A DNA stretch of 63,825 nt, filler included, from Collodictyon triciliatum (taxonomy: Eukaryota), in assembly GCA_043381765.1 (NCBI GenBank). It is 8 parts of 8 records of this genome, joined end to end, with 100 filler letters (N's around TTAATTAATTAA, not from the genome) between each part and the next. Parts side by side here need not be neighbours in the genome. Positions count along the whole stretch, not along the records: positions 42,925 to 51,402 come from JBHJMP010003411.1; 7 more parts are not named here. One strand, 5' to 3'. Of the stretch, positions 25,757-59,976 are shown in pieces. Every line of letters starts with the position of its first letter. The first letter of the stretch is position 1. The position numbers were made by a program, and so were the translations under genes. Below the pieces are notes generated by a model, which saw nothing but the letters and a program-made list of their open reading frames with translations, had not been told where the DNA came from and did not search any database.

Positions 25757-28700
25757 TCACAAGTGGAGTTTCTCAACTCAAATCCTATCTTGCATTCGCA
25801 ATCGGTTGAATAAAGAGAGCCATTGTTTTTTGTCGTAAATTTATCGCCACAGGATAAGCAGAAATTCGTGCCGTTTGTTGGTTTGTATGCGCCAAGTCTG
25901 CACGGAACACACTCACTTCCATCCTCAAAGTTTCCTGGAGGACATGTACAAATAGCATCATATGACACATAGGTATATAAGCATTTACAATAATCGATTG
26001 ATATGGAACCTTCTTTTATTGTGGTTGAGCGTGTCGGGCATAGGTTGCATGATGTGGTTCTTTCTGAGCTGTAGCTTCCATTCGGACATGAGATACATGA
26101 AGATTGATTATACGAGCCAGTTTTATTGTTGAATGTTCCCGCTGGACATGATGTGCATGATGCTTGACCATCTCTATCATTCCAAGTACCTTGTGGACAT
26201 TCGATACATGATTTGTTTCCATAGGAGCCGAAGTTTGAGTTGAATGTGCCTTTTGGACAAGCATAGCATGATTGTGAGTCTTTTGTCATACCTTCTTTTT
26301 GATAGAATCCTGGTGAGCATGAGTTGCATGATGCGCTTCTTTCTGAGCTGTAGCTTCCATTTGGACATGAAATGCATGAAGATTCATTAAATGAGCCAGT
26401 TTTGTTGTTGAATGTACCAGCTGGACACGATGTGCATGATGCCTGGCCATTCTTGTCATTCCAGGTACCTTGTGGACATTCGGTACATGATTTGTTTCCA
26501 TATGAGCCAGAGTTCGAGTTGAATGAGCCTTTTGGACAAGCGTAGCATGATTGTGAATCTTTTGTGATTCCTTCTTTTTGATAGAATCCTGATGAGCATA
26601 AGCTACATGATGCGCTTCTCTCTGAGCTGTAGCTTCCATTTGGACATGAAATGCATGATGATTGATTGAATGAGCCAGTAATGTTGTTGAATGTACCAGC
26701 CGGACATGATGTGCATGATGCTTGTCCATCTCTATCATTCCAAGTGCCTTGTGGACACTCAATGCATGATGAGTTTCCATATGAGCCGGATTTTGAGTTG
26801 AATGTGCCTTTTAGACAAGCGTAGCATGATTGTGAGTCTTTTGTGACACCTTCTTTTTGATAGAATCCTGATAAACATAGACTGCATGATGAGCTTCTTT
26901 CTGAGCTGTAGCTTCCATTTGGACATGAAATGCATGATGATTGATTGAATGAGCCAGTTTTGTTGTTGAATGTACCCGCTCGACATGATGTGCATGATGC
27001 TTGACCATCTCTATCATTCCAAGTGCCTTGTGGACATTCAACACATGATTTGTTTCCGTATGAACCGAAGTTTGAGTTGAATGTGCCTTTTGGACAAGCA
27101 TAGCATGATTGTGAGTCTTTTGTGATTTCTTCTTTTTGATAGAATCCTGGTGAGCATAAAATGCATGATGAGCTTCTCTCTGAACTGTAGCTTCCGTTTG
27201 GACATGAAATGCATGATGATTGGTTGAATGAGCCACTTTTATTGTTAAATGTACCAGCTGGACATGATGTGCATGATGCTTGACCATCTCTATCATTCCA
27301 AGTGCCTTGTGGACATTCAATACATGATGAGTTCCCATATGAGCCGGATTTTGTGTTGAATGTGCCTTTTGGACAAGCATAGCATGATTGTGAGTCTTTC
27401 ATTATTCCATCTTTTTGGTAGAATCCTGATAAACACAAACTGCATGATGCGCTTCTCTCTGAGCTGTAGCTTCCATTCGGACATGAAATGCATGATAATG
27501 GATTGAATGAGCCAGTTTGATTGTTGAATGTACCAGCTGGACATGATGTGCATGATGCTTGACCATCTCTATCATTCCAAGTGCCTTGTGGACATTCAAT
27601 GCATGATTTGTTTCCATATGAGCCGGAGTTCGAGTTGAATGTGCCTTTTGGACAAGCATAGCATGATTCAGAGTCTTTTTTTATTCCTTCTTTTTGATAG
27701 AATCCTGATGAGCATAAGCTGCATGAAGAGCTTCCAACTGAGCTGTAGCTTCCATTTGGACATGAAATGCATGATGATTGATTGAATGAACTAGTTTGAT
27801 TGTTGTATGTGCCAGCTGGACATGATGTGCATGATGCTTGACCATCTTTATCATTCCAAGTACCTTGTGGACATTCGATACATGATGTGTTTCCATATGA
27901 GCCGGATTTTGAGTTGAATGTGCCTTTTGGACAAGCATAACACGATTTTGGGTCTTTTTTTATTCCTTCTTTTTGATAGAATCCTGATAAGCATGAATTG
28001 CATGATGCGCTTCTCTCTGAGCTGTAGCTTCCATCTGAACATGAAATACATGATGATTGATTGAATGAGCCTGTTTTGTTGTTAATTGTACCAGCTGGAC
28101 ATGATGCGCATGATGCTTGACTATCTCTATCATTCCAAGTGCCTTGCGGACATTCAGTACATGATTTGTTTCCATATGAGCCGGAGTTTGAGTTGAATGT
28201 GCCTTTTGGACAGGCATAGCATGATTCCGAGTCTTTTAATATTCCGCCTTCTTGATAGAGTCCTGGTGAACATGAGATGCATGATGCGCTTCTTTCTGAG
28301 CTGTAGCTTCCATCTGAACATGAAATACATGATGATTGGTTTAATGAGCCTGTTTTGTTGTTCATTGTACCAGCTGGACATGATGTACATGATGCTTGAC
28401 CATCTTTATCATTCCAAGTGCCTTGTGGACATTCAATACATGATTTGTTTCCATATGAGCCGGAGTTTGAGTTGAATGTGCCTTTTGGACAAGCATAGCA
28501 TGATTCCGAGTATTTTAATATTCCTTCTTCTTGATAGAATCCTGATAAACACAGACTGCATGATGCGCTTCCAACTGAGCTGTAGCTTCCGTTTGGACAT
28601 GAAACACATGATGATTGATTGTATGAACCAGTTTTATTGTTGAATGTACCAGCCGGGCATGATATGCATGATGCTTGACCCTCCTTATTATTCCAAGTAC

Positions 28701-31700
28701 CTTGTGGACATTCGATGCATGATGATTTTCCATATGAGCCGGAGTTTGAGTTGAATGTGCCTTTTGGACAAGCATAGCATGATTCCGAGTCTTTTGTGAT
28801 TCCTTCTTTTTGATAGAATCCTGGTGAACACAAGCCGCACGACGAGCTTCTCTCTGAGCTGTAGCTTCCGTCTGAACATGAAATGCATGATGATTGGTTG
28901 AATGAACCAGTTTTGTCGTTATATGTACCCGCTTGACACGATGTGCATGATGCTTGACCATCCTTATCATTCCATGTACCTTGTGTGCATTCAATGCATG
29001 ATTTGTTTCCATATGAGCCGGATTTTGAGTTGAATGTGCCTTTTGGACATGTGAAGCATGATTTAGAGTCTTTTATGATTCCTTCTATTTGGTAGAATCC
29101 TGATGAGCATAAGCTGCATGATGAACTCCTTTCTGAGCTGTAGCTTCCATTTGGACATGAAATGCATGATGATTGGTTGAATGAACCAGTTTTGTCGTTA
29201 TATGTACCCGCTGGACATGATGTACATGATGCTTGACCATCTCTATCATTCCAAGTACCTTGTGGACATTCAGTACATGATATATTTCGATAAAAACCGG
29301 AGTATGAGTTGCATGTGCCTTTTGGACAAGCATAGCATGATTCCGAGTCTTTTAAGATTCCGTCTTCTTGATAGAATCCTGGTGAACATAAGCTGCATGA
29401 TGAACTTCTTTCTGAGCTGTAGCTTCCATTCGGACATGAGATGCATGATGATTGATTGAATGAACCAGTTTTGTTGTTGAATGTACCTGCTGGACATGAT
29501 GTGCATGATGCCTGACCATCTCTATCATTCCAAGTACCTTGTGGGCATTCGACACATGATTTGTTTCCATATGAGCCGGATTTTGAGTTGAATGTGCCTT
29601 TTGGACAAGCAAAGCATGATTTTGAGTCTTTTGTGATGTCTTCTTTTTGATAGTATCCTGATGAGCATAAACTGCATGATGCACTTCTTTCTGAGCTGTA
29701 GCTTCCATTTGGACATGAAATGCATGATGATTGGTTGAATGAACCAGTTTTGTCGTTATATGTACCCGCTGGACATGATGTGCATGATACTTGACCATCC
29801 TTGTTATTCCAAGTACCTTGTGGACATTCGACACATGATTTGTTTCCATATGAGCCGGGGTTTGAATTGAATGTGCCTTTTGGACAAGCGTGGCATGATT
29901 TTGAGTCTTTTATAATTTTATCTTTTTGATAAAATCCTGATGAGCACAAGCTGCATGATGAGCTTCCAGCTGAGCTGTAGCTTCCGTTCGGACACGAAAT
30001 ACATGATATTTCATTATATGAACCAGTCTTATTATTAAATGCACCAGCTGCACATGATGCGCATGATGCTTGACCATCTTTATCATTCCAAGTACCTTGT
30101 GGACATTCGGTGCATGATTTGTTTCCATATGAACCGGATTTAGAGTTGAATGTGCCTTTTGGACAAGCGTGGCATGATTTTGAGTCTTTCGTTATGTCTT
30201 CTTTTTGATAGAATCCTGGTGAACATGAGATGCACGATGAGCTTCTTTCTGAGCTATAGCTTCCGTCTGGACACGAAATGCACGATGATTGATTGAATGA
30301 GCCAGTTTTATTGTTAAATGTCCCAGCTGGACACACTATACAATCCTTTCTATGAATATTTCCATAAGTCCCCTGAGGGCATCGAATACAAAATATCTTA
30401 TCGTAAGCACCAAAACTTGGGTTATAAGTTCCATCAGGGCAATTGTAGCATGATACTTGACCAGTCGTATTTCCATAAGTTCCTGAATCACACAATGAGC
30501 ACATAATGGATGCTGATGATGACGAAAAGCTTCCTTTTTCACATGGGATGCAATCCATCTCACTTTGGGATACAGTTTCACTATTATAAGTTCCAGCCGG
30601 ACATTCATTACAATCGATTGCTCTAGTCGAATTTGAATATGTTCCAGGTTGACAGGGAGAACAAAAAGTCTTTCCAGGTTCTTTATTATAGAATCCATGA
30701 GGACAATCAAAGCATGTTGTTTGTCCTCTTATGTTATTGTACGTTCCTGGTTTACATTCATCACAGGAAGTCTGACCAGTTTTGTTGTTAAAGGTTCCTT
30801 CCAAACAATAAAGACACGAAACTTGGCCTGAATATGGTGTATATGTCCCAATATCACATTCAAGGCATGATTTTTGTCCATTATTTGAATTGTATGTACC
30901 ACTTTCACAAAAAGTGCACATTGATTGGCCTGCTAGAGGGCTATATGTTCCAGGGGCACATAGAAGGCATGAACCAATATTTTTGGATCCTGACGATGGG
31001 TTGTATGTACCAATGGGGCATAATGCACACGATGGACTACCACCAAGATTATAACTACCAGGAGGACATATTGCACAATTTTTTAATGATGAGTCGTAGT
31101 AGTATCCCGCTTGACAAAACCCCCAAATTTTGATTGTTTTATCACCACTTCCAGATATAATTTTTGAATCGCCTAGAGGTATAGCCAAACTATAAATATT
31201 ACTGCTATGCCCAGTGAGCACCCGAATTAAATTTCCATTTGAAGCATCCCAAATTCTTATTGTCCTGTCAATACCTCCAGAAATTATAACAGAGCTGTCT
31301 AGAGAAAAAGATACATCAATAATGGGTAAAGAATGTCCAAAAATTGTGCGAATCAAAGCTCCATCAGAAAGATTCCAAATTTTGATAGTTTTATCGTCAC
31401 TTCCGGAAACAATTTTTGAACCATCAGGATCAACAGCAACACTATAAATGTAACTTGTATGGCCAGTCAATGTGCGAATCAAAGCTCCATCTGAAAGATT
31501 CCAAACTTTGATTGTTGTATCATTACTTACAGAGACAATTTTTGAATCATCAGGAGTAATAGCAACATGACTCACCCCAAGGGCATGACCAGTAAGTGTA
31601 CGAATCACAGCTCCATCAGAAAAATTCCAGATTCTGATCGATTTATCATAGCTTCCAGAGACAATTTTTGAACCATCAAGGGTAACTGCAACACTGGTAA

Positions 31701-34240
31701 CACCAGAAGTATGTCCATTCAATGTGCGAATCAAAGCTCCATCTGAAAGATTCCAAACTTTGATTGTTGTATCATTACTTACGGAGACAATTTTTGAACC
31801 ATCATGAGTTACAGCAACATGGTTCACCCCAAGGGCATGACCAGTAAGTGTAAGAATCACAGTTCCATCAGAAATGTTCCAGATTCTGATTGTTCGGTCA
31901 TAACTTCCAGAGACCATCATTGAGCCATCAGGAGTAACTGCAACAGTACGAACTTCACTGGTATGACCGATTAATGTGTGAATCAAAATTTCTTCAGAAA
32001 TCTTCCATATTTTTATGGTTCTATCACCGCTTCCAGAAACAATTTTAGAATTATCAGGAGATATAAAAACGCTGAAAATATAGCTTTCGTGATGAACTAA
32101 TGTACCAATCAAAGCTCCATCAGAAAGACTCCATATTTTGATTGTGTTGTCTGCGCTACCCGAAACAATTTTCGAACTATCAACCGTCACAGAAACACTG
32201 TAGACATACCCAACATGACCTATCAATGTGCGAACCAAAGTTCCATCAGAAAGATTCCATATTTTGACTGTTTTGTCAGCACTCCCAGAAATTACTGTAA
32301 AACCATGTGATGTAATGGTAACACTATAAACATAACTCATATGACCATTCAATGTGCGAATCAAATCTCCATTAGAAAGATTCCAAATTTTTATTGTTGT
32401 ATCACCACTTCCAGAAACAATTTTTAAGCCATCAGGAGAAATTGTGGTACTGAGTACCCGACTAGAGTGACCAGTCAATGTGCGAATCAAAGTTCCTTCT
32501 GAAATATTCCAAATTTTTATTGTTGTATCACCACTTCCAGAAACAATTTTTGAGCCATCAGGAGAAATTATAACACTGTAAACATAACTACTATGACCAT
32601 TCAATGTGTAAATCAAAGTTCCATCAGAGAATTTCCAGATTTTTATTGTTTTGTCCCAACTTCCAGAAACTATTTTTGAACCATCAGGGCTTGAAATGGC
32701 ACAACTAACCCAACTAGTATGACCCGTCAATGTGCGTATCAAAGCTCCATCTGAAAGATTCCAAACTTTTATTGTGCTATCATCATATCCAGAAATTATT
32801 TTCAATCCATCAAAAGATATTGTGGTATGCAATGCGATTTGCTTACTTACTGATACAATTCGACTGAATGAAAAATCTGGTATGAACCACACTTTAATTG
32901 TTCTATCATCACCACCAGAGACGATTTTTGAGCTATCAGAAGTGATACGGACACTACGGACATAATTTAAATGATTTATGAGAGAACTGACCAAATTTCC
33001 ATCAAAAAGATTCCAAATTTTTATAGTTTCATCAACACTTCCGGAAACAATTTTTGAGCCATCAGGAGAAACAGCAACACTATAAACATATCCATTATGG
33101 CCAATTAATGTGCGAATCAAAGCCCCATCAGAAGGATTCCAAATTTTGATTGTGGTATCAGCACCCCCAGAAACAATTTTTGAACCATCAGGAGAAACAG
33201 CAACACTGTAAACATATCCATTATGGCCAATTAATGTGCGAATCAGAGCTCCATCAGAAAGATTCCAAATTTTGATTGCACTGTCGCCGCTTCCTGATGC
33301 AATTATTGATCCATCAATGGAAACAGCAATATTGTAAACATAACTGTTATGTCCATTTAATGTGCGAATCAAAGCTCCGTCAGAGAGATTCCATATTCTG
33401 ATAGTATTATCGCCACTTCCAGAAACAATTTTTGAGCCATCCGGAGTGATAGCAACACTGTAAACATAGCTTTTGTGTCCATTTAATGTGCCAATTAAAG
33501 TTCCATCAGAGAGATTCCAAATTTTTATATTACTATCTGCGCTTCCTGAAACAATTTTTGAGCCATCAGGAGTAACAGCAACACTGTAAACATATCCATA
33601 ATGACCGATTAATGTGTGAATCAAAGCTCCATCAGAAGGATTCCAAATTTTGATTGTATTATCATCACTCCCTGAAATAATTTTTGAATTATCTGGGGTA
33701 ACATAGACACTACGGACACTATTAGTATGACCAGTCAATGTGAGAATCAAAGCTCCATTGGAAAGATCCCGAATTTTAGTAATTTTATCATCCCCTCCAA
33801 ATACGATTTTTGAACCATCAGGAGTAATAGCCACACTATTAATGTACCTTGTTTGGCCATTCAATGTTCGAATCAAATCTCCATTGTCTAAATTCCATAT
33901 TCTAATTGCGCTATCGGCACCCCCTGAAACAACCTTTGAACCATCAGGAGTAACAGCAACACTGTGAACATATCCATAATGACCGATTAGTGTGTGAATC
34001 AAAGCTCCATCAGAAAGATTCCAAATTTTGATCGTTTTGTCCCAGCTTCCAGAAACAATCTTTGATCCATCAGGAGTAATAGCAAGACTCTTGACAAAGC
34101 CTGTGTGAAAACCTCTAGTGTGAATCAAAGTTCCATCAGATATTTTCCAAACTTTAATTGTATTGTCCCAACTTCCAGAAACAATTTTGGTACCATCAGG
34201 AGTAATAGAAACAGTTTGAACATATCCTGTGTGTCCTGTT
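25757..34240 (-). CDS. Giant WD40-repeat (at least 25) + Cys-rich (GCC2/GCC3 or ephrin-receptor-like) repeat protein, open at both ends, intronless over the whole scaffold
   Basis: One frame is open for all 8,484 nt. 42-aa repeats GH..V.SVA.SPDGSKIVSGS.D.TIKIW span 31123-34240 and are followed by CxxCxxGTY/F repeats. Confidence 0.92.
26020..30380 (-). repeat. 279-bp (93-aa) coding tandem repeat, about 15-16 copies
   Basis: The C(P/T)QGTWN motif recurs 15 times at 279-nt spacing between about 26190 and 30100. Confidence 0.92.
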
Positions 34241-42622: not shown

Positions 42623-42979
42623 TGTCTATGGGAAGGTCAGTTTTTTCCTTTTTCACTCTTTCCTTTTCGCATCTCTATATTTAAGCTGAGATATGTCCGC
42701 TTATTGTATGATAATCTGAGTGGATTTTTCGACAACGTTCACATCATGGTATAGCCGCTTCCTTGAATTATAGTGTTTTTATTTATTTACTTCTTTCCTT
42801 CTTTTTTTTTTTTTTTTTGCAATCNNNNNNNNNNNNNNNNNNNNNNNNNNNNNNNNNNNNNNNNNNNNTTAATTAATTAANNNNNNNNNNNNNNNNNNNN
42901 NNNNNNNNNNNNNNNNNNNNNNNNTTTAATTCAGACACCGCTTGCATGTTCGAGGCTGCTCTTGCTTTGTGCTGCTTCC

Positions 42980-44870: not shown

Positions 44871-45124
44871 GACGCACCCGATTAAAATGCCAATTACAAG
44901 CAATAAATAATTACCAACACAGTGTAGCGATGTGAAGCAAATTATTTGTATGATTTTATGAAGTATTCGAGAAAGTAAGTATACAACAGGTATTATGCTA
45001 TCCTATGTCCATTCCCTCTTTTACATGGTCTTCTTTGGTTAGTATCGCATATGCTTCTGCTATTTTGATGATGATGCAATCATCACCTCAGTCCGAGTCA
45101 TAAAGGCGCATGGCGTGCTGCAGC

Positions 45125-45341
45125 AAGCTTCTTTGTCACAAGAGCCAGCTCCCTACAAAGTTTACGGTCATGGGTAAAAAGTGTTCAGAACACATCCTCA
45201 AAGAGCGTCCGCCAGCCGCGAACAACGAACGACAAGTAAAAGCCCCGCAAAAGAATACACCTGCCAAGCAGACAAGCAGCAACGGGGTCAGGGAAGCCAA
45301 GGCCAGGCAACAACAGAGTCCGCAAGACTCACAGCAGATAC
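45125..45341 (+). mobile_element. Dispersed repeat copy 1, putative non-LTR retrotransposon ORF1 fragment, running into a 950-N gap
   Basis: 45125-45289 closely matches 51239-51402. Confidence 0.55.
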
Positions 45342-46739
45342 NNNNNNNNNNNNNNNNNNNNNNNNNNNNNNNNNNNNNNNNNNNNNNNNNNNNNNNNNNN
45401 NNNNNNNNNNNNNNNNNNNNNNNNNNNNNNNNNNNNNNNNNNNNNNNNNNNNNNNNNNNNNNNNNNNNNNNNNNNNNNNNNNNNNNNNNNNNNNNNNNNN
45501 NNNNNNNNNNNNNNNNNNNNNNNNNNNNNNNNNNNNNNNNNNNNNNNNNNNNNNNNNNNNNNNNNNNNNNNNNNNNNNNNNNNNNNNNNNNNNNNNNNNN
45601 NNNNNNNNNNNNNNNNNNNNNNNNNNNNNNNNNNNNNNNNNNNNNNNNNNNNNNNNNNNNNNNNNNNNNNNNNNNNNNNNNNNNNNNNNNNNNNNNNNNN
45701 NNNNNNNNNNNNNNNNNNNNNNNNNNNNNNNNNNNNNNNNNNNNNNNNNNNNNNNNNNNNNNNNNNNNNNNNNNNNNNNNNNNNNNNNNNNNNNNNNNNN
45801 NNNNNNNNNNNNNNNNNNNNNNNNNNNNNNNNNNNNNNNNNNNNNNNNNNNNNNNNNNNNNNNNNNNNNNNNNNNNNNNNNNNNNNNNNNNNNNNNNNNN
45901 NNNNNNNNNNNNNNNNNNNNNNNNNNNNNNNNNNNNNNNNNNNNNNNNNNNNNNNNNNNNNNNNNNNNNNNNNNNNNNNNNNNNNNNNNNNNNNNNNNNN
46001 NNNNNNNNNNNNNNNNNNNNNNNNNNNNNNNNNNNNNNNNNNNNNNNNNNNNNNNNNNNNNNNNNNNNNNNNNNNNNNNNNNNNNNNNNNNNNNNNNNNN
46101 NNNNNNNNNNNNNNNNNNNNNNNNNNNNNNNNNNNNNNNNNNNNNNNNNNNNNNNNNNNNNNNNNNNNNNNNNNNNNNNNNNNNNNNNNNNNNNNNNNNN
46201 NNNNNNNNNNNNNNNNNNNNNNNNNNNNNNNNNNNNNNNNNNNNNNNNNNNNNNNNNNNNNNNNNNNNNNNNNNNNNNNNNNNNNNNNNNNCTATAAAAT
46301 CCAATTTAAGATTATCCATACTCGGCCGTAAAACCGACATCAGAGATTTCCAGATGCACGCCCATAATGAGATGACACTTTTTTTTCGCCAGTAATCGAA
46401 CCCAATAGCAGACGCATCCGAATCGAGAGAGATTGAAATCGTGGAGGAGTGTAACTGTCTCCGCTTGTCACTGCAATGGAAAAAAAAAAAAAACTGGCCC
46501 GCTTCTTCAGAAATGAAAAGCCAAATGAAAATTTAACAGAAAGGACTTCGGCTTGACCAGGCTCGTGAGGTGACCCAAGTTACTCGTCGATACAACCCAG
46601 CCAAATCAAAATGTTGGCAGTATAGTAGAATGATGGTGAATCTCTCGTCTACCACAGGTTGAAAGGGACAACTAGCGACACGAACACTTTGTATCGAATA
46701 AAGGAAAAAAAAAACTGGCGACACGAACAAACTATTGAC

Positions 46740-46947
46740 GAAACGAGCAAAGAAACGAGCAAAGAAACGAGCAAAGAAACGAGCAAAGAAACGAGCAAAG
46801 AAACTAGTTAAGAAACAAACAAAAAACAAAAAACAAAAAACAAACAAAAAACAAATAAGAAACATACAAAAAAAAACAAACAAAAAACAAACAAAAAACA
46901 AACAAAAAACAAACAAAAAAGAAACAAACAACAAACAAAAAACAAAT
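46740..46947. repeat. (AAACGAGCAAAG)5 followed by A-rich simple repeats
   Basis: Directly visible. Confidence 0.8.
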
Positions 46948-48822
46948 CCAAAGAAATGCAGAAGTATTCTAATCTATACGCCACACACAAACTTACGGTT
47001 AAAGACAAACTTATTTTTAAGCGCACGCATACACGCATAGAGCCATTTATTTCTCAATAATAATCATCCTAAAAGAACGGACTGGAACCTCAAGACGTTT
47101 CGCTTCGACACTCCGAGCACAATAGCAGCTAAACACTCAGAACCTTGTCTTTGGCCAATTATCCCACATCTTTTAGCTTCCAGCCTCGTCGATTTGTTTG
47201 TAGTGCACTTGTTCAAGGTGTCGCAGAATACAGGCCCCTTGCCCACTGAGGCCAGTCAAGCATGGAGGCACATATTACGCGCAAGCCTTGAAAGAGCCAC
47301 ATATCCGCTAGCTTCGGAAGCTTCTCCAAAGGGTCAAAGCAGCACCGGGCTCAAAAGCCCTTGGCTCCATTAGGTACGTAAGCGGCAGATAGAAACAGAG
47401 CCTTGTTGTGCCGTGCCTCTTGGCTCTGTTTAACGTGTGGGCCTTGCGAAGAATCGGTCGGTCTTGGCCTGATTGACGCAGCCATGCTGGAAGGTGGGCG
47501 CTGCGGCGGGTTGGGCGGACAAGAAACTCTGAAGCCCACGACTCGGCTTGAGCCTTACCATCGCTGCGGGCTTCGTTACGATAGCAGCAACGCTAACGCA
47601 GTCTTCGAGCGGAATGGCGGTTCTTTTATACTCGCCCGGTGCGCTTGCTCGCCATTGCGTTGCCGCCTACAGAAATTTCGGTGCTTTTGTTGCGAAATGG
47701 GTTTCATCCCATCAGTTAGATTCCGACGCATTTGAAAAAAGAAGAAAAAACGAGGACTATTGTTTTTCTTTTCGCGCCCAAAATACCTTTATTTCCAAAC
47801 CAAAAAACCTATCGACACGGTTATTGAGAGTAACGGACAAACGTTTCTCTTGTGTCTTTTTTTTTAAATTCTTATTTTCCCGCCAAACCATCGACTTATT
47901 TTTCTTTCCGTTACTGAAAATCTAATGACACGTTTATTGAGAGTAACGGACTTGCATTTCTCCTTGGATGGCCCAACATATGTATTTATTGAAATTCAAA
48001 TTACCACTAAATCCATTCAATTCGATTCAATTCAGCTGAGGCGAACACATCACGAGTCGAGGCGTGCGCTTCGAGCATCGGACACACAGACACACTCGGC
48101 CGCGCATTTGTCCCGCCCGGTTTGCCGACGGAAGTTGGGTGGTATCAGGCGAAGGTGCCTGCTTGTTCGTTGAAGGGCGCCTATTTGCCTTCCAACAGAC
48201 GAATCCTCGCTGCCAAGCCAAATCACGCGCTGCCCGTCGGCCTACTTGGTGGGGTCGGCTTTGAATCTAATGGAAAAAACAAACAAACAGATATGCTTTC
48301 TTTTTCTACTTCGTTCATAATACTCATTCAGACAGCCAAGCTATTCTTGACTTTGCTCTGTCTGAGTTGAGTGTGCTTGGCTGGCCAAGCTTTGAGAAGC
48401 TGCTCTGGGACATGCGTGCCAAATGATCATGGCACAAATGTCGGTGTCTCTTTCTTCTATTTTATGTTTTCCTTTCTGATGCGATTGAGGCGGAGAACCT
48501 CTATCTTAAATCCGTGACTTCTTTCTCAAAGGAACGAAAGCAATAGCAGTAAGTGCAGAGAAAGAGCAATATTACTGCCACATATTTTTTTTTTACGTCC
48601 TTTGCTTTCTTTACAAAGATACTACACACGTGTATTCTTCAAAAAAAAGTGAGGAAAAAAAAATCTCTTTTTAACCCGATCATACAAAAACGTAGGTTTG
48701 GGTGGAGTCAGCCCAGCCAACCTCATAGTTCGTAACACAGTAATTTTGCCAAATTTAATCTATATGCTGCCTCTAGACCCAGTGATTATTGACGGCTAAC
48801 AGCTGCCAGGAACCTCAAGCAG

Positions 48823-48872
<50 letters not shown>

Positions 48873-49448
48873 ATCGACACAATGTCCACTACTTGCTCAA
48901 ATATCTCAACACCATATATGAATTCCATGGACTGCTTCCGAGCGGATTCCTAATGGTACAATATCCTCTAGTTATTACTAAGGATTTTGTTGGGAGTGCC
49001 ACATGTGTAACTCAGCCTCATTTTTTTTTATCATGGTTCAATACAAGCTGGACCGTACAAAGATATTTAGTGTGTTAAAACATCAATTGTCTCAGTATCC
49101 CTTCCGTAGCATATAATCATATTCATATCCAATATGGAATCATTACAAAATGAATAGAAACTATGGATCAACCCCGCCCTTACATGAGCATATAAGACAT
49201 TAGCCCACTAAACATTTCCTTTTCTGAGAGCCTTTTTCTCACTTTTTTTTTTTTTGAAAAAACTGATACACTGGGTACATAATGTACGTTGATCGAAACA
49301 TGGAACTGATTCAATGATTCGACAAGTGTGGTGTCGTCAAGAGTTTAGGAGAGGCCTCAGAATAGCAATTAATATTTTATGTGAATGAAGCATGGTATGT
49401 AGTTTAACCTTAATTTCTTCTCCAGACGTTACACTACCAACAGCATCT

Positions 49449-50694
49449 ATGACGACTGCATATTCAACGGTGGCTGTCTTTTTAATGGGTATGCACATAT
49501 TATTTTCAAGTTATTGATATTCTTGAAATTGTTAACCCATGGTTATTTCACGTTGGACTACTTTTTTCTCTGTCACTTACGCATAGTAAACTCTTTATCT
49601 ACTTCATAGCATTGCTATTTCAAAGCCAACTCTGCCACGTCGAGGGAGAGGACAAGGACCTGATACGATCAATTCCTAATGCTGGAGCCACTTATACAGT
49701 TGCCTTAACCCCTGACGGAACAAAAATAGTTTCTGGGAACAGAGACGCCAAAGTCCTGATTTGGAGCGTTTCTGATGGAAGTTTGATTCGCACATTGACA
49801 GGCCACACTGATTATGTTTACAGCGCTATTGTTACTCCCGATGGTACGAAAATCGTGTCCGGAAGTGGTGACAATACAGTCAAGATATGGAACCTTGCGG
49901 ATGGCGCCTTGATTGACACCTTGACTGGACATACAAACGTAATCGATAGCGTTGTGGTGACTCCTGACGGAACCAAGATTATCTCTGGAAGTGCTGACTA
50001 TACAATCAAGATTTGGAACTTCGAAGATGGCTCCTTGAATAACACATTGAATGGCCATACACGTGGGGTCATATGTGTCACTGTTACTCCTGATGGCTCT
50101 AAAATTGTCTCTGGTAGTTACGACAGAGCAATTAAGATTTGGAATCTTTCAGATGGCTCGTTGATTCGCACATTGACCGGTCACACTGGATATGTTGAGA
50201 GTGTTGTAGTAACACCCGATGGCACAAAAATTGTCTCTGGAAGCGGAGATAATTCAATTATCATCTGGAGCCTCTCCAGCGGTGCGCTGATTCGCACGCT
50301 GAAAGGTCATACTGGTTATGTTCGCAGCGTTGCAGTTACTCCTGATGGCTCGAAGATTGTCTCCGGAAGCCTGGATTTGAAGCTAAAAACATGGAATCTT
50401 GCGGACGGCTCCCTTATTCGCACACTGAGCGGACATACTAGCGTCGCTTGGAGTGTTGCTGTTGAGCCGAAGGGCTCGAATATTGTTTCCGGAAGCTTTG
50501 ATGGAACCATCAAGGTCTGGAAGATTTCTGATATACCTGACCCAGCCCCACCAAAGCCCACCCCCTCCGAGCCATCAGCAGCGACTTCCCTTTCATCGTC
50601 CCTCTTGACCATAGCGATTGGTGTCTCGGTCTGTATCTCTTTCATCTCGTCAAGTGGCTCCAAGGCGCATGAGCGAGAGCAGGCGTTGGAGTAA
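49449..50694 (+). CDS. Predicted secreted or membrane-anchored single WD40 propeller: signal peptide, 7 WD repeats, Pro-rich linker, hydrophobic C-terminal segment
   Basis: Exon 1 49449-49488 (G|gtatgc) plus exon 2 49610-50694 (catag|CA) give MTTAYSTVAVFLMALLFQSQLCHVEG-EDKD...; the end reads PDPAPPKPTPSEPSAATSLSSSLLTIAIGVSVCISFISSS. Confidence 0.85.
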
Positions 50695-50999
50695 TTCTGC
50701 TGGATAGTTCTTGTTTGTTTCGACCAAAACCGAAGCGAGAGAAATAATATATGCTTGTCTGTGCGTGTATAATTTCTGGCCTTTCGACTGATATCTCTAT
50801 GAAGCATTCTCTTCCCGCTCTTCGTCCACAAATGTGTTCCTTTCTATCTTTCGTGGGTGGCCACTCTCCAAGACGGCTCGAAATAAACATACACAAATCA
50901 TATCGCCTTTGGGTCATGTGCCAACATCACTCTAACTGCACAGCAGGCCAGAAAGGCAAAAGGAAAAAAAGTAGCGTCCTTTACCTATTGAATACATTC

Positions 51000-51402
51000 T
51001 TCAGCAAATACCCCGTCGAATACTTCATAAGTTGTAGCCACTTCTGCTGGAGCAGGTAAGTTTGATCGATATTACGATCAGCTTCGCTAGAAGTAGACCA
51101 ACAGATACCTCGGTGATGCTCTGTCAACTACCACTGGACGTGTGGCCGCAACTCCTTCGTGAGGAGCTGAAGGCGTTCAGACCGTCCCACGTGGACATCA
51201 AAAAGGATAAAGGCTTCTTTACAGATACGGCCGTGGTGAAGCTTCTTTGTCATAAGAACCAGCTCCCTGCAAAGTTTACGGTCAAAGTAAAAAGTGTCCA
51301 AAGCGCATCCTCAAAGAGCGTCCGCCAGCCGCGAACAACGAACGACAAGTAAAAGCCCCGCAAAAGAATACACCTGCCAAGCAGACAAGCAGCAACGAGG
51401 TC
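51000..51402 (+). mobile_element. Dispersed repeat copy 2, degenerate L1/Tx1-type ORF1 (RRM-like) fragment at the scaffold end
   Basis: TSVMLCQLPLDVWPQLLREELKAF...GFFTDTAVVKLL...LPAKFTV resembles the ORF1 RRM pattern; there is a 1-nt frameshift relative to copy 1. Confidence 0.5.
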
Positions 51403-51502: not shown

Positions 51503-51622
51503 CAATACAATACAATACAATACAATACAATACAATACAATACAATACAATACAATACAATACAATACAATACAATACAATACAATACAATACAATACAA
51601 TACAAAACAAAACAAAACAAAA
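51503..51622. repeat. (CAATA)n microsatellite
   Basis: Directly visible. Confidence 0.9.
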
Positions 51623-51657
51623 AATGAAAAAAATAACAAATACACCGAAAATCAAAG

Positions 51658-54574
51658 GCTATGATGGACGATACGGACATCCAAACGGAAGAAGATGTCG
51701 CTGCGATAGCCAAAGCACGTTCAGTAAAAAATAAATTCAGTTTCAACGAGCGAGCCACTCAAACATACAGCCAACCTCCAAAGGTACTTTATCGCATGAA
51801 TCAATCCATATATTTATTTTCGAACTAATTATGAGGCCAGCATATGCCGAATTGAAAAATCTTACCGATTTGCATATCTGGTTATTTTTTTTTTTGATTT
51901 CTTATATTATTTGTTGAGATATTTTTTATTTTGGGATTGTTATTCATAAAATGATTTAAAACGTCAACATACCTTAAGCACCGAACCACTGCGACTGACC
52001 CACCACCACGCGAGCATTTCCTCGGGAATGTGACACAATGGGAAATCTATGATGCTTACATGGATTTTGAAGAGAATAAACGCATCCAGAGAGAAAGGAG
52101 TAAAATTGCTGCCCGTCAGGCAAACAAGGACGAGGATGGAGAGGTCTGTATTATGTCAAATTATAACCCATACACAATTGCAGTGAGATTAAACCTCCCC
52201 TTTTCAGAAAAAAGAAACCAAGGAATTGATGCAGCTGATTCCAGACAAGGCACCCGAGCCTCAAAATCAGAAAGTTAGACTTTTGAATGGTGATGAGATG
52301 CTGGGTACAGAAGCCTTTCATAAATCTCTCGTTATCATGGAGAGAATGATGAATCAAAATTACTATCGCGAAATAATGCACGATTTCAAATACTGGGATG
52401 ACCCCTCCGACCAATATCGCGAAGAAGGTGCTCAGTAATACACAAAATATAACAGCAAATATTTATACATTAAGTCCTTTTACATATCTGTGTTAAAAAT
52501 TTTCATGACAAGTTGTAAGTTGTGCGCAATGGAGTACATAGCTGACCTGTATTATGACACAGGGAGCCTTCTACCGCTTTGGAAATTCAAGTTCGATAAA
52601 GCCAAGAGAAAAGCAGTAACTGCTATCGTATGGAATCCTGAGTTCTTTGACTTCTTTGCTGTTGGTTATGGAAGCTACGACTATTTGCGACCGAGTTCTG
52701 GGCTCATAGCCTGCTTCTCTTTGAAAAACCCATCATATCCAGAATTCTACTTCAAGGTTGACTCTGGAGTAATGGCAATCGACTTTCACCCACAGGTACG
52801 TGTCGTGTATTACTCAGCCATAATTATTGATCCATTTATTTATGAAATTTCTTACCGGTTAAAATGGATACATAGTATTCCTCTCTTCTTGCTGTGGGAC
52901 TACATGATGGACGCGTGATGGTATTCGATGTCCAATCAAAAGGAACTGAGCCAATTTTCCAATCCAGTGCTAATGCTGGAAAGCATACAGACCCCGTGTG
53001 GCAGGTCTGCATAAACTCGAATGTTATTTACCAACTAAAATAAACAGCAACTAAAAACATGCGAACTTTTATGAGTTAGGTAAAATGGGAGCCGGAGGGA
53101 TTTGCCCGTGATTTAAAGTTCATGTCCATATCATCCGATGGCCGTGTTACTCTATGGACATTATTAAAAAATGAACTGCATCATAATGTACGCTTTTATA
53201 TTCGTGTAATCATCCGTCGTCATTATGATTATGATTGTGATTAATTTTTTTCTTGTTAAGTTATTGTAAAACAATGGCACGAATGAATATATCTTTCAAG
53301 CACAATTTCCCTGGGTCTATCAGAATGTAATGCTTTGATCCAAATGTAATCTATATTCATCTACCAGGATTTGATGGAGCTGAAATACCAACCATCCCTG
53401 ACAAAAGAGGTCTCTGAGGGAGAAGAAGGAGGCGCACTGTTTGAGCTGTCCGGAGGATGTTCGTTTGACTTTAACAAGTTTAATGAACATCTCTTCCTCG
53501 TGGGTACAGAGGAAGGGCAGATTCACAAATGCTCAAAGACATACAACAGCCACTACTTGGAGACATATGAGGTCCACCCTCGTGCAAACCAAAAATATTC
53601 GATTCATTCCAAAATAGATTAGCTAACCATATCTGAACATTCATGTATTCCTCTGCGCCGTTTTATGCCCCTGGCCTTTTGGTTGAAATGCCCTTTTTTA
53701 TTTGTAAGTGAACGAACTTTTCTTAATCTACACAGGGACATGACATGGCGGTTTATAATCTTCGGTGGAATCCGTTCCACTCGCGCGTGTTCTTGTCCTG
53801 TAGTGCGGATTGGACGGTTAAAATGTGGGAGCACAATCACAGCAGCCCTTTGATGATGTTTGATTTGGGTAATTCTGTTGGAAGCATCGCGTGGGCTCCG
53901 TTTTCTTCAACTACATTTGCGGCGGTCACTTCAGATGGAAAAGTACCTGGGCCTTTATTACTATTATGAATAATGACAACGTATTGTGCCATCAATTTTT
54001 TTTTTTATTAAAAAAAAAAAAAAAAGAGAATGAAATAAGCTTTCGCGTTCAATCACCTTGCCATCGAATAGAATAATTAAAATAACCCTCCTCGTAATAA
54101 AGATCCACATTTTCGATTTGAGTCGCAACAAAAATGACTCTATCTGCGAACAGCAGATCGTGAACAAGGCGAGCTTGACTCACGTTGCATTCAATCACAA
54201 GGTTTTTTTTTCTTTTCCAGCAAAGAACTATCAACAAAGAAATAAAATGTTTAATCATTTATATCGTGTGCCAGATGAATAAATGAGACTGCGTGTGAGT
54301 GAGAGGAATTGTATCTGTGGGTGTTGTAAATCAACATCCACACAATCACCGCCATCATCACCACCATGTTGAAGGCTCCCATATCATTTCTTTTCCTTAT
54401 TCGTGTCAACACCACTGCTACCAGGAGCCCATCATCATCGTTGGTGACGACAGGGGGGTTATCTCCTGCCTGAAGATGTCCCCGAACATCCGCAAACACG
54501 GAACGATGGAAGAGGAAATGGCCAAGATGGAGAAGATTGTATCTGCGTCGTTGAAAGGGGAGGGCCATATCTAG
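51658..54574 (+). CDS. DNAI1: Axonemal outer-arm dynein intermediate chain 1 (IC78/DNAI1), 5'-partial
   Basis: [92 protein letters not shown] and [13 protein letters not shown]. Confidence 0.93.
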
Positions 54575-55202
54575 TCCCCGTGCAAAGTGCCTAAACAAAG
54601 CACACCTTCTAACCTGTCCGGGTATGAGACTCGAAGAACGGGAATAAAATCAAGAAACAAAGAAATAATAATGTGTTGGTCCCAAATTATATATATACAC
54701 CTAGATATTTTGGGACCAACATAATGAACCACGACGATGGCTGAGTGAAAGTTATACACAGAAAGGAAGGGATTGAACAGAGACAAACAGCGACCCATAT
54801 ATATATATATATATATGTTTTTGTTTGTGAATAAATGAGTACAGTAGTAACCAGAATAAAAAATGGCAATGATAGATGAAATAATAGTAATAATTGTGAT
54901 GATGCATATCATTCTCTATTGGAGAGATATTTCCGTGCTGATTGTATTCTTTATTTGCTTTACTATTGTGTTTTGGACTGAGTTCTGTCAAGTTTATGTG
55001 TACTGAAGGGTGCAGCACGTGTTCTTTCATTCTATATATAAAAATAGATAAAATTTGTTGTTCGGGAGTAGTAATACGAGCATCACAAATGTCCCTTTTC
55101 TTTTTTCTCTTGAAAGGACGATGAATAAATCAAAGAAAGTGCATAAATTTCATTAATTAGCCAACGACAAACTATCAAATCGTGAGACTTTGGGACAAAC
55201 CT

Positions 55203-58208: not shown

Positions 58209-59976
<1,768 letters not shown>

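What the first reader, a model, noticed from the sequence alone, without database searches (positions are those of the whole stretch)
49449..50694. Hidden first exon gives a small WD40 protein a signal peptide: a second, unlinked surface-WD40 gene
Seen: the listed ORF starts at TTG with no upstream in-frame ATG, but a 40-nt exon (49449-49488) splices in frame to give MTTAYSTVAVFLMALLFQSQLCHVEG-EDKD. Seven WD repeats of the same type as the giant ORF follow (TPDGTKIVSGSGDNTVKIWNLADGALI), then a Pro-rich linker and a hydrophobic segment resembling a TM or GPI signal. Inference: this supplies the topology evidence that the truncated giant gene lacks. Two such genes in eight unrelated scaffolds suggests a large family of extracellular WD40 proteins in short and tall forms. 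This is the strongest candidate for an undescribed system here.
Basis: partly seen in the sequence, partly recalled or inferred. Interest (0 to 1): 0.78.

Follow-up and report, generated by a model that had tools for sequence, protein, structure and literature searches.

The report
Possible membrane-anchored WD40 propeller gene
This is a real-looking gene for a seven-bladed WD40 propeller whose sequence suggests, without proving, that it sits on the outer face of a membrane, which is unusual for this normally intracellular fold in eukaryotes.

Summary
The 402-codon open frame 49486-50694 has no in-frame ATG. A 40-nt ATG segment (49449-49488) joins in frame across a 121-nt GT..AG gap to 49610. 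Seven 42-residue WD repeats fold as a confident closed propeller. A Pro/Ser/Thr-rich linker, a 15-residue hydrophobic core and a 15-residue charged tail follow.

The intron resembles three homology-verified introns in the window, and the repeats show purifying selection. But the first exon is not unique: 251 naive in-frame joins exist, an upstream in-frame ATG lies at 49392, and alternative donors and acceptors are available. Its hydrophobicity has roughly a 1-in-8 chance of arising among the nearby candidates. No signal-peptide, TM or GPI predictor and no RNA data were available.

The best topology evidence comes from the paralogous giant ORF. Its WD40 array runs, with no hydrophobic break, into an 11%-cysteine Ephrin-receptor-like array. 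Homologues of that array mostly carry TM segments.

A GPI anchor is unlikely. A tail-anchored cytosolic propeller of the Sec12 type remains a live rival. Family size could not be tested. Predicted periplasmic WD40 arrays in bacteria and plant CRINKLY4 are precedents.

The parts
49449..49488 (+). Candidate first coding exon: 40 nt, starting with ATG and ending in phase 1. It encodes the n-region and most of the hydrophobic core of the putative leader.
   Evidence: Read and spliced computationally. GC is 0.425. It is the only one of 12 nearby phase-compatible ATG..GT candidates to reach 9-residue hydropathy of 3.12 or more within the first 30 aa. It is not verified by RNA.
49392..49394 (+). Alternative in-frame upstream ATG.
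   Evidence: ORF 49392-49517 is listed, the sequence context is visible, and the join is enumerated.
49489..49609 (+). Candidate intron: 121 nt, GTATGC...CATAG. An alternative in-frame donor lies at 49510. Alternative acceptors would start exon 2 at 49511 or 49587.
   Evidence: GC is 0.31, against 0.479 for exon 2. Length, GC and splice-site dinucleotides are comparable to the three homology-verified introns at 59788-59613, 59482-59401 and 59326-59221 on the minus strand.
49610..50694 (+). Main coding exon: the end of the leader, the propeller, the linker, the hydrophobic helix, the tail and the stop codon (50692-50694).
   Evidence: ORF, Pfam. Across the 21 repeat pairs dN is 0.16-0.80. Synonymous change is saturated: NG86 gave a dS for 11 pairs (1.15-2.49; their median dN/dS 0.21) and none for the other 10. 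Mean identity between repeats is 0.40 at third codon positions against 0.66-0.73 at positions 1 and 2.
49610..49647 (+). Exon-2 part of the putative leader: the end of the hydrophobic core plus a polar c-region ending V-E-G. These residues lie outside the propeller fold.
   Evidence: In the AlphaFold2 model, ORF residues 1-9 have pLDDT below 50 and the first strand starts at ORF residue 17. The -3/-1 rule was applied by eye, from recalled knowledge.
49660..50523 (+). Seven-bladed WD40 beta-propeller, ORF residues 17-304, made of seven 42-residue repeats.
   Evidence: Foldseek top matches are 7big_A and 5yzv (PkwA WD40), with target TM-scores of 0.97-0.98, and 2ymu_A. phmmer against PDB gives 2ymu_A at E=8.6e-135.
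50533..50601 (+). Pro/Ser/Thr-rich linker of 23 residues, a stalk-like segment.
   Evidence: Translation. pLDDT falls to 78, then 60, then 49 across this region.
50602..50646 (+). Hydrophobic core of 15 residues flanked by Ser triplets: the putative single transmembrane helix.
   Evidence: Kyte-Doolittle mean is 2.56 over 15 residues and 2.09 over 19. AlphaFold2 does not model it as a helix (pLDDT 30-39).
50647..50691 (+). C-terminal tail of 15 residues, polar and charged (K, H, R and three E).
   Evidence: Translation. Its presence argues against a GPI signal (a rule recalled from knowledge; no predictor was run).
25757..34240 (-). Paralogous giant ORF, open at both ends of its piece. About 23-24 WD40 repeats (roughly 31120-34233) are followed directly by 40 Ephrin_rec_like cysteine-rich repeats.
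   Evidence: Pfam: 23 WD40 stretches and 40 PF07699 stretches. Translation, tblastn. No TM-like window anywhere (maximum 19-residue hydropathy 1.27). Cysteine is 0.1% in the WD part and 11% in the Cys-rich part.

Best explanation
The locus is a genuine gene of at least two exons in an unidentified eukaryote. It encodes one closed seven-bladed WD40 propeller of the highly regular 'bacterial/fungal tandem' type.

The propeller is preceded by a short hydrophobic leader that exists only after splicing an upstream ATG exon onto the main exon. It is followed by a Pro/Ser/Thr-rich stalk, one hydrophobic helix and a 15-residue charged tail. The simplest reading is a type I membrane protein: the leader takes the chain into the ER, the propeller ends up on the luminal or extracellular face on a short stalk, and the tail stays in the cytosol. 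With no enzymatic or signalling domain, it would act as a membrane-tethered protein-binding platform (recognition, adhesion or co-receptor). It would be a 'short' relative of the giant protein in which several such propellers sit at one end of a long cysteine-rich rod.

Shown:
- the coding frame and its lack of any ATG;
- the in-frame GT..AG join;
- the seven-blade fold (predicted);
- purifying selection on the repeats;
- paralogy with the giant ORF;
- contiguity of WD40 and Cys-rich repeats in the giant ORF.

Inferred:
- use of this particular exon and start codon;
- signal-peptide function and cleavage;
- membrane orientation;
- final cellular location;
- ligand-binding role.
For: - The open frame has 0 ATG in 402 codons, so an upstream start is required.
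- The join 49488/49610 is in frame and stop-free and gives 374 aa.
- Intron length, GC content and splice-site dinucleotides match three introns verified by homology in the same window.
- Exon 2 opens with about 12 residues that are not part of the propeller: the first strand is at ORF residue 17, and residues 1-9 have pLDDT below 50. These residues read as the end of a hydrophobic core plus a polar c-region.
- The hydrophobic N-terminus is fairly robust to the model. The listed joins onto acceptors at or before 49610 from the alternative donor at 49510, acceptor 49587, acceptor 49511 and several far-upstream exons score 2.2-3.6.
- Only 1.9% of 2264 pseudo-exons from the window match the exon's hydropathy.
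- The C-terminal core has hydropathy 2.56 over 15 residues, preceded by a Pro/Ser/Thr-rich linker.
- In all 21 pairwise repeat comparisons dN (0.16-0.80) lies below a synonymous change that is saturated: dS is above 1 in the 11 pairs where NG86 could estimate it and not estimable in the other 10. Third-position identity is 0.40 against 0.66-0.73 at positions 1 and 2, so the sequence has been kept as protein.
- The paralogue (57-62% identity) is a single ORF in which the WD array passes directly into 40 Ephrin_rec_like repeats, with no hydrophobic window above 1.27.
- 53 of the 120 hits listed are of this Cys-rich type. Of those 53, 39 have a strong TM-like segment and 20 have an N-terminal hydrophobic leader. 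This fits the Cys-rich array being an ectodomain.
- 41 of the 120 closest WD40 hits, mostly bacterial, have a hydrophobic segment N-terminal to the WD array.
- The literature predicts periplasmic WD40 arrays in bacterial kinases (PMC11032199, passages) and orthocaspases (PMC7475262, one passage).
Against: - There is no transcript evidence.
- 251 naive in-frame, stop-free ATG..GT/AG joins exist within 2 kb.
- With seven ATGs within 300 nt upstream, the chance of one equally hydrophobic exon is about 13% (my arithmetic).
- Some joins onto acceptors at or before 49610 leave no hydrophobic leader: short first exons such as 49485-49488 or 49385-49394 spliced to 49610 score only 1.14-1.19, about the exon-2-only baseline of 1.19.
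- The in-frame ATG at 49392 has the better Kozak-type context. It would place the hydrophobic core at residues 27-36, where the score within the first 30 residues is only 2.04.
- The leader has no positive charge in its n-region and a longish c-region.
- No SignalP, TMHMM or GPI predictor could be run.
- The hydrophobic core is only 15 residues, and AlphaFold2 gives it no helix (pLDDT 30-39).
- The propeller shows no hallmark of adaptation to the secretory pathway. It has 1 Cys and 2 N-x-S/T sequons, 0.65 per 100 aa, against 0.51 per 100 aa in the 120 mostly bacterial hits.
- Canonical WD40 proteins of eukaryotes are overwhelmingly cytosolic or nuclear (established knowledge).
- The same WD type occurs in fungal NACHT-WD proteins (names).
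- No protein with leader, propeller and C-terminal helix was seen among the hits: 0 of 120 have a hydrophobic segment after the WD array.
- A pyrimidine-rich stretch ending in AG at 49424-49425 could mean further upstream exons, so the true N-terminus may be longer.
Confidence: 0.5

Rival explanations
1. A tail-anchored or type II (Sec12-like) topology. The real start gives no functional signal peptide, the propeller stays in the cytosol, and the C-terminal hydrophobic segment inserts post-translationally. The result would be a membrane-tethered cytosolic WD40 scaffold.
For: - The single hydrophobic segment ends 15 residues from the C-terminus, which is the geometry of tail-anchored proteins (recalled knowledge).
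- Its 15-residue core is short, as in ER and Golgi anchors (recalled knowledge).
- Some nearby 5' models give no hydrophobic leader. Examples are a start at the ATG at 49485, or acceptors at 49626-49651.
- The propeller has almost no Cys and few sequons.
- Cytosolic location is the default for eukaryotic WD40 (established knowledge).
Against: - The exon-2 frame carries about 12 non-propeller residues of leader-like character ahead of the first strand.
- Several of the listed joins onto acceptors at or before 49610 give hydrophobic N-termini.
- The 57-62% identical paralogue has its WD40 array fused, without a membrane-spanning segment, to ectodomain-type cysteine-rich repeats.
- Nothing points to Sec12 orthology. 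The best relatives are bacterial-type tandem arrays, and none of the 25 Pfam families displayed out of 56 is Sec12-specific.
Confidence: 0.2
2. A dead or orphaned gene fragment: a propeller-plus-anchor piece copied from a larger family member that has lost its start. The 'hidden exon' would then be a chance in-frame join.
For: - There is no ATG in the frame.
- 251 chance joins are available.
- No recognisable coding feature lies in the surrounding 5 kb: 0 Pfam hits for 9 flanking ORFs.
- The locus lies between two copies of a 165-nt repeat at 93% identity, at 45125-45289 and 51239-51402, beside microsatellites and assembly gaps.
- No orthologue with this architecture was found.
Against: - 402 codons are open in sequence of about 44% GC.
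- All seven repeats are intact and are modelled with pLDDT of 97-99.
- The repeats are saturated at synonymous sites but conserved at the protein level. This requires long purifying selection, although it does not prove that selection acts today.
- The propeller is complete, and the stalk, helix and tail form a coherent module rather than a truncated piece.
Confidence: 0.12
3. A longer protein: further coding exons lie upstream, beyond the AG at 49424-49425 or in the GC-rich islands at 47100-47700 and 48000-48300. The hydrophobic stretch would then be an internal membrane helix or signal anchor rather than a cleaved leader.
For: - A pyrimidine-rich stretch followed by AG lies 24 nt upstream of the ATG at 49449.
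- GC-rich islands lie upstream.
- The frame through 49392-49488 is open.
- Far-upstream joins with hydrophobic N-termini exist.
Against: - The upstream ORFs have no Pfam match.
- The 10-residue hydrophobic core is too short for a stable membrane span (recalled rule).
- The three verified acceptors have no strong pyrimidine tract, so the AG at 49425 carries little weight.
Confidence: 0.1
4. Bacterial contamination: a bacterial WD40 gene with a legitimate TTG start, sitting in a bacterial contig.
For: - The start codon is TTG.
- The closest database and structural relatives are bacterial.
Against: - Best identity to any listed hit is only 54%, against 57-62% to the giant ORF in the same window. 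That ORF carries eukaryote-type Ephrin_rec_like repeats.
- The flanks are gene-poor, AT-rich and full of microsatellites.
- No Shine-Dalgarno-like sequence precedes the TTG.
- Other pieces of the window carry spliced eukaryotic genes.
Confidence: 0.03

Closest known systems
Bacterial and cyanobacterial tandem WD40 arrays, such as the Nostoc 'highly repetitive propeller' 2YMU, the Thermomonospora PkwA WD40 domain 5YZV, and Ser/Thr-kinase-, orthocaspase-, trypsin- or SLH-linked WD40 proteins
   Same: - These are the closest relatives by sequence, at 49-54% identity. 2ymu_A scores E=8.6e-135.
- They are also the closest by predicted fold, with target TM-scores of 0.97-0.98 to 5yzv.
- Many are predicted to place the WD array outside the cytoplasm behind a single membrane helix: 41 of 120 hits have an upstream hydrophobic segment. 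PMC11032199 (passages) and PMC7475262 (one passage) say the same.
   Different: - Those proteins carry a cytoplasmic kinase, caspase or protease module, and their membrane helix is N-terminal to the array.
- Here there is no such module. The helix is C-terminal (0 of 120 hits have that), the gene is spliced, and it sits in eukaryotic DNA.
Plant CRINKLY4 receptor kinases (ACR4, PpCR4)
   Same: - The architecture is signal peptide, seven-bladed propeller that the authors call a WD40 domain, cysteine-rich TNFR-like domain, then TM helix (bioRxiv 10.1101/2020.08.10.245050, abstract and passages).
- This is the nearest eukaryotic precedent for an extracellular propeller next to a cysteine-rich module, as in the giant ORF.
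   Different: - Each CRINKLY4 blade is locked by a disulfide and the N-terminal strand is buried in the centre. Here the propeller has a single Cys.
- CRINKLY4 has a cytoplasmic kinase. Here there is only a 15-residue tail.
- No sequence relationship was tested or is claimed.
Sec12/PREB
   Same: A WD40-type propeller attached to a single membrane helix near the C-terminus (PMC5572378, one passage).
   Different: - Sec12 is type II, with the propeller in the cytosol and no signal peptide.
- This protein's repeats are near-identical tandem units of the bacterial/fungal type and are paralogous to the head of a Cys-rich giant protein.
- Orthology was not directly tested.
Fungal NACHT-WD40 (NWD/HET-E-like) and cyanobacterial STAND-WD40 proteins
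   Same: They share the same class of highly regular 42-residue WD repeats. Fungal NACHT/WD40 proteins appear among the hits to the giant ORF's WD part.
   Different: Those are cytosolic NTPase-linked sensors. No NACHT or NB-ARC domain is present in this ORF or in 9 flanking ORFs.
Giant Ephrin_rec_like / IPT-TIG / NCD3G cysteine-rich membrane proteins of protists and invertebrates
   Same: - The Cys-rich half of the giant ORF matches them at E values down to 0.
- 39 of the 53 Cys-rich-type hits have TM-like segments.
   Different: By a motif count, 0 of the 120 listed hits combine WD repeats with the Cys-rich repeats. The small gene has no Cys-rich repeats at all.

Membership tests
WD40 repeat beta-propeller (Pfam PF00400; WDR5-like seven-blade propellers) | Tandem repeats of about 42 residues that match the WD40 profile | tested here: met
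   PF00400 matches at E=1.4e-66 with 6 stretches, and Beta-prop_WDR5 at 2.9e-82 (276.7 bits, cut-off 250). Seven repeats in register are printed.
WD40 repeat beta-propeller (Pfam PF00400; WDR5-like seven-blade propellers) | Closed propeller of four-stranded blades | tested here: met
   AlphaFold2 with a 36-sequence alignment gives mean pLDDT 87.8, pTM 0.81 and 28 strands over residues 17-304. Foldseek gives target TM-scores of 0.97-0.98 to solved seven-blade WD40 propellers. This is a prediction, not an experimental structure.
Eukaryotic type I (signal peptide plus single-pass) membrane proteins | Cleavable N-terminal signal peptide with n-, h- and c-regions and small residues at -3 and -1 | tested here: inconclusive
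   Only hydropathy and by-eye rules were applied. The h-region is about 10 residues with hydropathy 3.12, and V-x-G lies before the acidic start of the mature chain. There is no positive n-region charge. The result depends on an unverified splice. No SignalP was available.
Eukaryotic type I (signal peptide plus single-pass) membrane proteins | One hydrophobic membrane span C-terminal to the ectodomain, followed by a cytosolic tail | tested here: inconclusive
   The hydropathy windows are strong (2.56 over 15 residues, 2.09 over 19) and a charged 15-residue tail follows. But the core is only 15 residues, AlphaFold2 gives it no helix, and no TM predictor was available.
Eukaryotic type I (signal peptide plus single-pass) membrane proteins | Marks of passage through the secretory pathway (disulfides, N-glycan sequons) in the ectodomain | tested here: inconclusive
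   The small propeller has 1 Cys and 2 sequons (0.65 per 100 aa), close to the mostly bacterial hits (0.51 per 100 aa). The giant paralogue has W-N-x-S/T in 13 of 22 repeats, against 69 of 716 in those hits, but repeat homogenisation could explain that.
GPI-anchored proteins | The hydrophobic signal lies at the extreme C-terminus after a short polar spacer | tested here: not met
   Fifteen polar or charged residues (K, H, R and three E) follow the hydrophobic stretch. The rule is recalled, and no GPI predictor was run.
Tail-anchored / Sec12-like type II WD40 membrane proteins | A single span close to the C-terminus and no N-terminal signal sequence | tested here: inconclusive
   The span position fits, ending 15 residues from the C-terminus. 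Whether an N-terminal signal is absent depends on the unverified 5' exon.
Tail-anchored / Sec12-like type II WD40 membrane proteins | Orthology to Sec12/PREB | not tested
   No Sec12 sequence was compared. Indirectly, the best relatives are bacterial-type tandem arrays.
CRINKLY4-type ectodomain | One conserved disulfide per blade, a buried N-terminal strand, and a cytoplasmic kinase | tested here: not met
   The propeller has one Cys and there is no kinase domain. The defining features are taken from bioRxiv 10.1101/2020.08.10.245050 (passages).
Bacterial kinase/caspase-TM-WD40 sensors | A cytoplasmic catalytic domain, then a membrane helix, then a C-terminal WD array | tested here: not met
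   There is no catalytic domain in the ORF or in the flanking ORFs. The hydrophobic helix follows the array rather than preceding it.
NACHT/NB-ARC-WD40 STAND proteins | A STAND NTPase domain N-terminal to the WD array | tested here: not met
   No such Pfam match was found in the ORF or in the 9 flanking ORFs scanned. More distant upstream exons cannot be excluded.

The most novel reading that the evidence does not exclude
A eukaryotic lineage has moved canonical, bacterial-type tandem WD40 propellers to the outside of the cell and built a receptor family from them. The short forms carry one propeller on a mucin-like stalk with a minimal cytosolic tail. The tall forms carry three or more propellers at the tip of a rod of more than 40 Ephrin-receptor-like cysteine-rich repeats. 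Such a family could serve prey, partner or non-self recognition. It would be an extracellular counterpart of the cytosolic WD40 sensors of fungi and cyanobacteria.
Probability: 0.3. Interest if true: 0.7.

Novelty: new variant of a known kind. Interest (0 to 1): 0.45.

Why it matters
WD40 propellers are among the commonest eukaryotic folds. By established knowledge they work almost exclusively inside the cell.

A spliced eukaryotic gene that puts a canonical WD40 propeller behind a signal peptide and in front of a membrane anchor would show that this fold has also been used as an ectodomain in eukaryotes. The giant paralogue, where the same propellers are fused to ectodomain-type cysteine-rich repeats, points the same way. 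It would parallel the periplasmic WD40 arrays predicted for bacterial kinases and the propeller ectodomain of plant CRINKLY4.

The finding also yields a compact 374-residue construct on which topology can be tested directly. The truncated giant gene does not allow that.

If the rival tail-anchored reading is right, the gene is an ordinary membrane-tethered scaffold and the interest is low.

Tried and rejected
1. Orthologues with the same architecture. The search for homologous proteins on the small ORF (lengths 198-630 only, 8000 candidates scored) gave no hit above 54% identity. None of the 120 listed hits has a hydrophobic segment after the WD array. I did not search shorter or longer lengths for this protein.

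2. WD40 plus Cys-rich fusions elsewhere. A search with the junction of the giant ORF (lengths 1543-4913) gave 0 of 120 listed hits with both motif types, using crude regular expressions.

3. Identifying the organism.
- The tyrosyl-tRNA synthetase search was run with lengths 'longer' by my own slip, so enzymes of normal length were not examined. Identities of about 50% to animals, Capsaspora and chytrids place the organism only as a eukaryote not close to any of them.
- Exact look-up of 5 window ORFs found none in the collection.
- Rfam found 0 matches at gathering thresholds.

4. ESM Atlas returned only generic WD40 clusters with scores of 0.87-0.88, below the level the tool treats as evidence.

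5. A Pfam scan of 9 ORFs around the gene gave 0 matches, so no upstream domain or transposon was identified.

6. GPI anchoring was considered and rejected on the C-terminal tail.

7. Bacterial contamination was considered and rejected (see the rival explanations).

8. Literature.
- The phrases 'secreted WD40', 'WD40 ectodomain', 'periplasmic WD40', 'extracellular WD-repeat', 'surface WD40' and 'extracytoplasmic WD40' returned 0 papers.
- 'extracellular WD40' returned 2 papers.
- 'WD40' with 'Ephrin_rec_like' returned one unrelated thyroid-cancer paper (listing only).
- 'WD40' with 'GCC2_GCC3' returned one general paper on domain combinations (listing only).
- The library omits most subscription journals, so these blanks are weak evidence.

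9. Not run or not possible:
- Not run: the search of protein representatives, because long WD arrays would fill its top 150; the genome-contig scan, which covers prokaryotes only; and complex prediction.
- Closed or unavailable: the metagenome and viral contig collections, so no eukaryotic DNA relatives could be fetched; and any signal-peptide, TM or GPI predictor or RNA-seq data.
Full report
**What the window is.**
The 63,825-base window consists of eight pieces of about 8.5 kb joined by N spacers. The finding lies in piece 42925-51402, which also has a 950-N gap.

The DNA is eukaryotic. The tyrosyl-tRNA synthetase gene on the minus strand of piece 51503-59976 can be rebuilt by homology into an in-frame coding sequence. 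This requires removing three GT..AG introns of 176, 82 and 106 nt, with GC 0.33, 0.30 and 0.43.

The organism was not identified. That enzyme is about 50% identical to animal, Capsaspora and chytrid enzymes (run on the 'longer' length class only, by my slip). Five window ORFs are absent from the protein collection.

**The observation.**
ORF 49612-50694 starts at TTG. The full stop-to-stop frame 49486-50694 has 402 codons and no ATG at all. So a functional gene must take its start codon from an upstream exon.

The AG at 49608-49609 precedes 49610. The join is in frame and gives a 374-residue protein. The 121-nt gap has GC 0.31, against 0.479 for the main exon. It falls within the range of the three verified introns.

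The protein contains seven 42-residue WD repeats (Pfam). With a 36-sequence alignment, AlphaFold2 gives a seven-bladed propeller: 28 strands over ORF residues 17-304, with block-mean pLDDT of 97-99. It superposes on solved bacterial and designer WD40 propellers with target TM-scores of 0.97-0.98. The best PDB sequence match is the Nostoc repetitive propeller 2YMU.

After the last blade come three elements:
- a 23-residue Pro/Ser/Thr-rich linker;
- a 15-residue hydrophobic core (hydropathy 2.56);
- a 15-residue charged tail.

**Is the gene real?**
In all 21 pairwise comparisons of the seven repeats dN (0.16-0.80) stays below a synonymous change that is saturated. NG86 gave a dS above 1 for 11 pairs (median dN/dS 0.21) and no estimate for the other 10. 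Third-position identity is 0.40, against 0.66-0.73 at positions 1 and 2. That pattern, together with an intact 402-codon frame, indicates long purifying selection on the protein. A recent pseudogene is unlikely, though present-day expression is not shown.

**How good is the hidden exon?**
It is the best short-range model, but it is not unique.
- A naive enumeration finds 251 in-frame, stop-free ATG..GT/AG joins within 2 kb.
- The two joins that give more hydrophobic N-termini need introns of 1145-1198 nt. That is about seven times or more the 82-176 nt of the verified introns.
- An in-frame ATG at 49392, with A at -3 and G at +4, would add 19 residues.
- An in-frame alternative donor lies at 49510. 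Alternative acceptors start exon 2 at 49587 and 49511.
- A pyrimidine-rich stretch ending in AG at 49424-49425 could mark a further upstream intron.

As a null model, I joined 2264 phase-compatible ATG..GT pseudo-exons from the whole window to the same acceptor. Only 1.9% reach the observed hydropathy. Seven ATGs lie within 300 nt, which gives about a 13% chance of one such exon (my arithmetic).

Two things strengthen the case. First, exon 2 itself begins with about 12 residues that lie outside the fold. They read as the end of a hydrophobic core plus a polar c-region ending V-x-G, immediately before an acidic stretch and the first strand. Second, several listed models with an acceptor at or before 49610 keep a hydrophobic N-terminus, although short first exons spliced to 49610 do not (they score 1.14-1.19).

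No signal-peptide, TM or GPI predictor and no RNA data were available. The leader therefore remains a reasoned inference.

**Topology.**
A GPI signal is unlikely because 15 polar or charged residues follow the hydrophobic stretch (rule recalled). A single membrane span is likely. Its orientation depends entirely on the N-terminus:
- with a leader, the protein is type I and the propeller faces out;
- without one, it has the geometry of a tail-anchored or Sec12-like type II protein with a cytosolic propeller. Sec12 is described as a type II protein with a WD40 motif in PMC5572378 (one passage).

The small propeller shows no secretory hallmark: 1 Cys, and 0.65 sequons per 100 aa against 0.51 in the mostly bacterial hits.

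**The giant paralogue carries the stronger argument.**
The ORF that fills piece 25757-34240 on the minus strand is open at both ends. It contains 23 Pfam WD40 stretches that run directly into 40 Ephrin_rec_like repeats. Its WD units are 57-62% identical to the small gene. That is more than any of the 120 listed database hits, which reach at most 54%.

No 19-residue window in its 2791 residues exceeds hydropathy 1.27. The Cys content jumps from 0.1% in the WD part to 11% in the Cys-rich part. The two parts must therefore lie on the same side of any membrane.

Of the 120 listed hits to its junction region, 53 are Cys-rich-type proteins. Of those 53, 39 carry a strong TM-like segment and 20 carry an N-terminal hydrophobic leader. 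This is as expected for ectodomains.

By a motif count, none of the 120 hits combines both repeat types. The giant's WD repeats carry W-N-x-S/T in 13 of 22 units, against 69 of 716 in the mostly bacterial hits and 1 of 7 in the small gene. That hints at glycan sites, but repeat homogenisation could also explain it.

**Comparison with what is known.**
The WD unit belongs to the very regular tandem class found in cyanobacterial and other bacterial multidomain proteins and in fungal NACHT-WD proteins (names).

Among the 120 closest hits, 41 have a hydrophobic segment upstream of the array. Published analyses predict periplasmic WD40 arrays in Planctomycetota kinases (PMC11032199, abstract and passages). 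They also predict extracellular WD40 in cyanobacterial orthocaspases (PMC7475262, one passage).

In eukaryotes, the nearest precedent is plant CRINKLY4. Its solved ectodomain is a seven-bladed propeller, which the authors call WD40, followed by a cysteine-rich domain (bioRxiv 10.1101/2020.08.10.245050, abstract and passages). That propeller is disulfide-locked and is linked to a kinase, unlike this one.

The present gene is a member of the WD40 propeller family. It is not a member of the kinase/caspase-WD sensors, the NACHT-WD proteins, the CRINKLY4 family or the GPI-anchored class. It may work like the first and third of these, as a tethered extracytoplasmic binding platform.

**Verdict.**
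- The sequence-level observation is confirmed.
- The reading 'signal peptide plus anchor equals surface WD40' is plausible (about 0.5) but unproven.
- The 'large family' claim is untestable here, since only two loci in eight pieces can be seen.
- 'Undescribed system' is too strong, given the bacterial and plant precedents.

If confirmed, this would be a new variant of a known kind: a canonical WD40 propeller used as a eukaryotic ectodomain. The small gene is the practical handle for testing that.

Noticed in passing
window 25757-34240 (-): In the giant ORF, 13 of 22 WD repeats carry an N-x-S/T sequon right after the signature Trp (mostly N-L-S). The rate is 69 of 716 in the 120 mostly bacterial hits. 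This could mark one N-glycan per blade, or it could simply reflect repeat homogenisation.
   Followed up: partly
window 45125-45289 and 51239-51402 (+): A direct repeat of at least 165 nt at 93% identity flanks the WD40 gene, with a spacing of 6113-6114 nt. One copy runs into the 950-N gap and the other into the end of the piece. It is not found in other pieces. It could be the edge of a tandem duplication or a dispersed element.
   Followed up: partly
window 277-4331 (-): Two long ORFs appear to form a ROCO-type gene. One carries Roc GTPase plus COR-A (2445-4331) and the other a protein kinase (277-1923).
   Followed up: no
window 58209-59976 (-): A tyrosyl-tRNA synthetase gene with a C-terminal tRNA-binding (EMAP II-type) domain. 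Its 5' end is cut by the piece boundary, and it has three short introns of 176, 82 and 106 nt. I used it as the splice-site reference for this organism.
   Followed up: yes
window 47100-47700 and 48000-48300: Two GC-rich islands (0.52-0.59) lie in the otherwise roughly 35% GC region upstream of the gene. They carry overlapping ORFs of about 100 aa on both strands, none with a Pfam match. Their nature is unknown.
   Followed up: partly
window 46706-46978: A-rich tandem repeats with periods of 11-12 nt, in 9 and 14 copies. Other simple repeats show up in ORF translations near 48800-48870 and 51503-51700.
   Followed up: no
window 34438-36138 (+), 36900-38483 (-), 41069-42622 (+): Three long ORFs (566, 527 and 517 aa) in a single piece, none with a Pfam match at E of 0.001 or below.
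   Followed up: no
window 49410-49425 (+): A pyrimidine-rich stretch ending in AG lies 24 nt upstream of the proposed start codon. If it is a real acceptor, the ATGs at 49385 and 49392 would be intronic and 49449 would be the first ATG of that exon. This is untestable without RNA.
   Followed up: no
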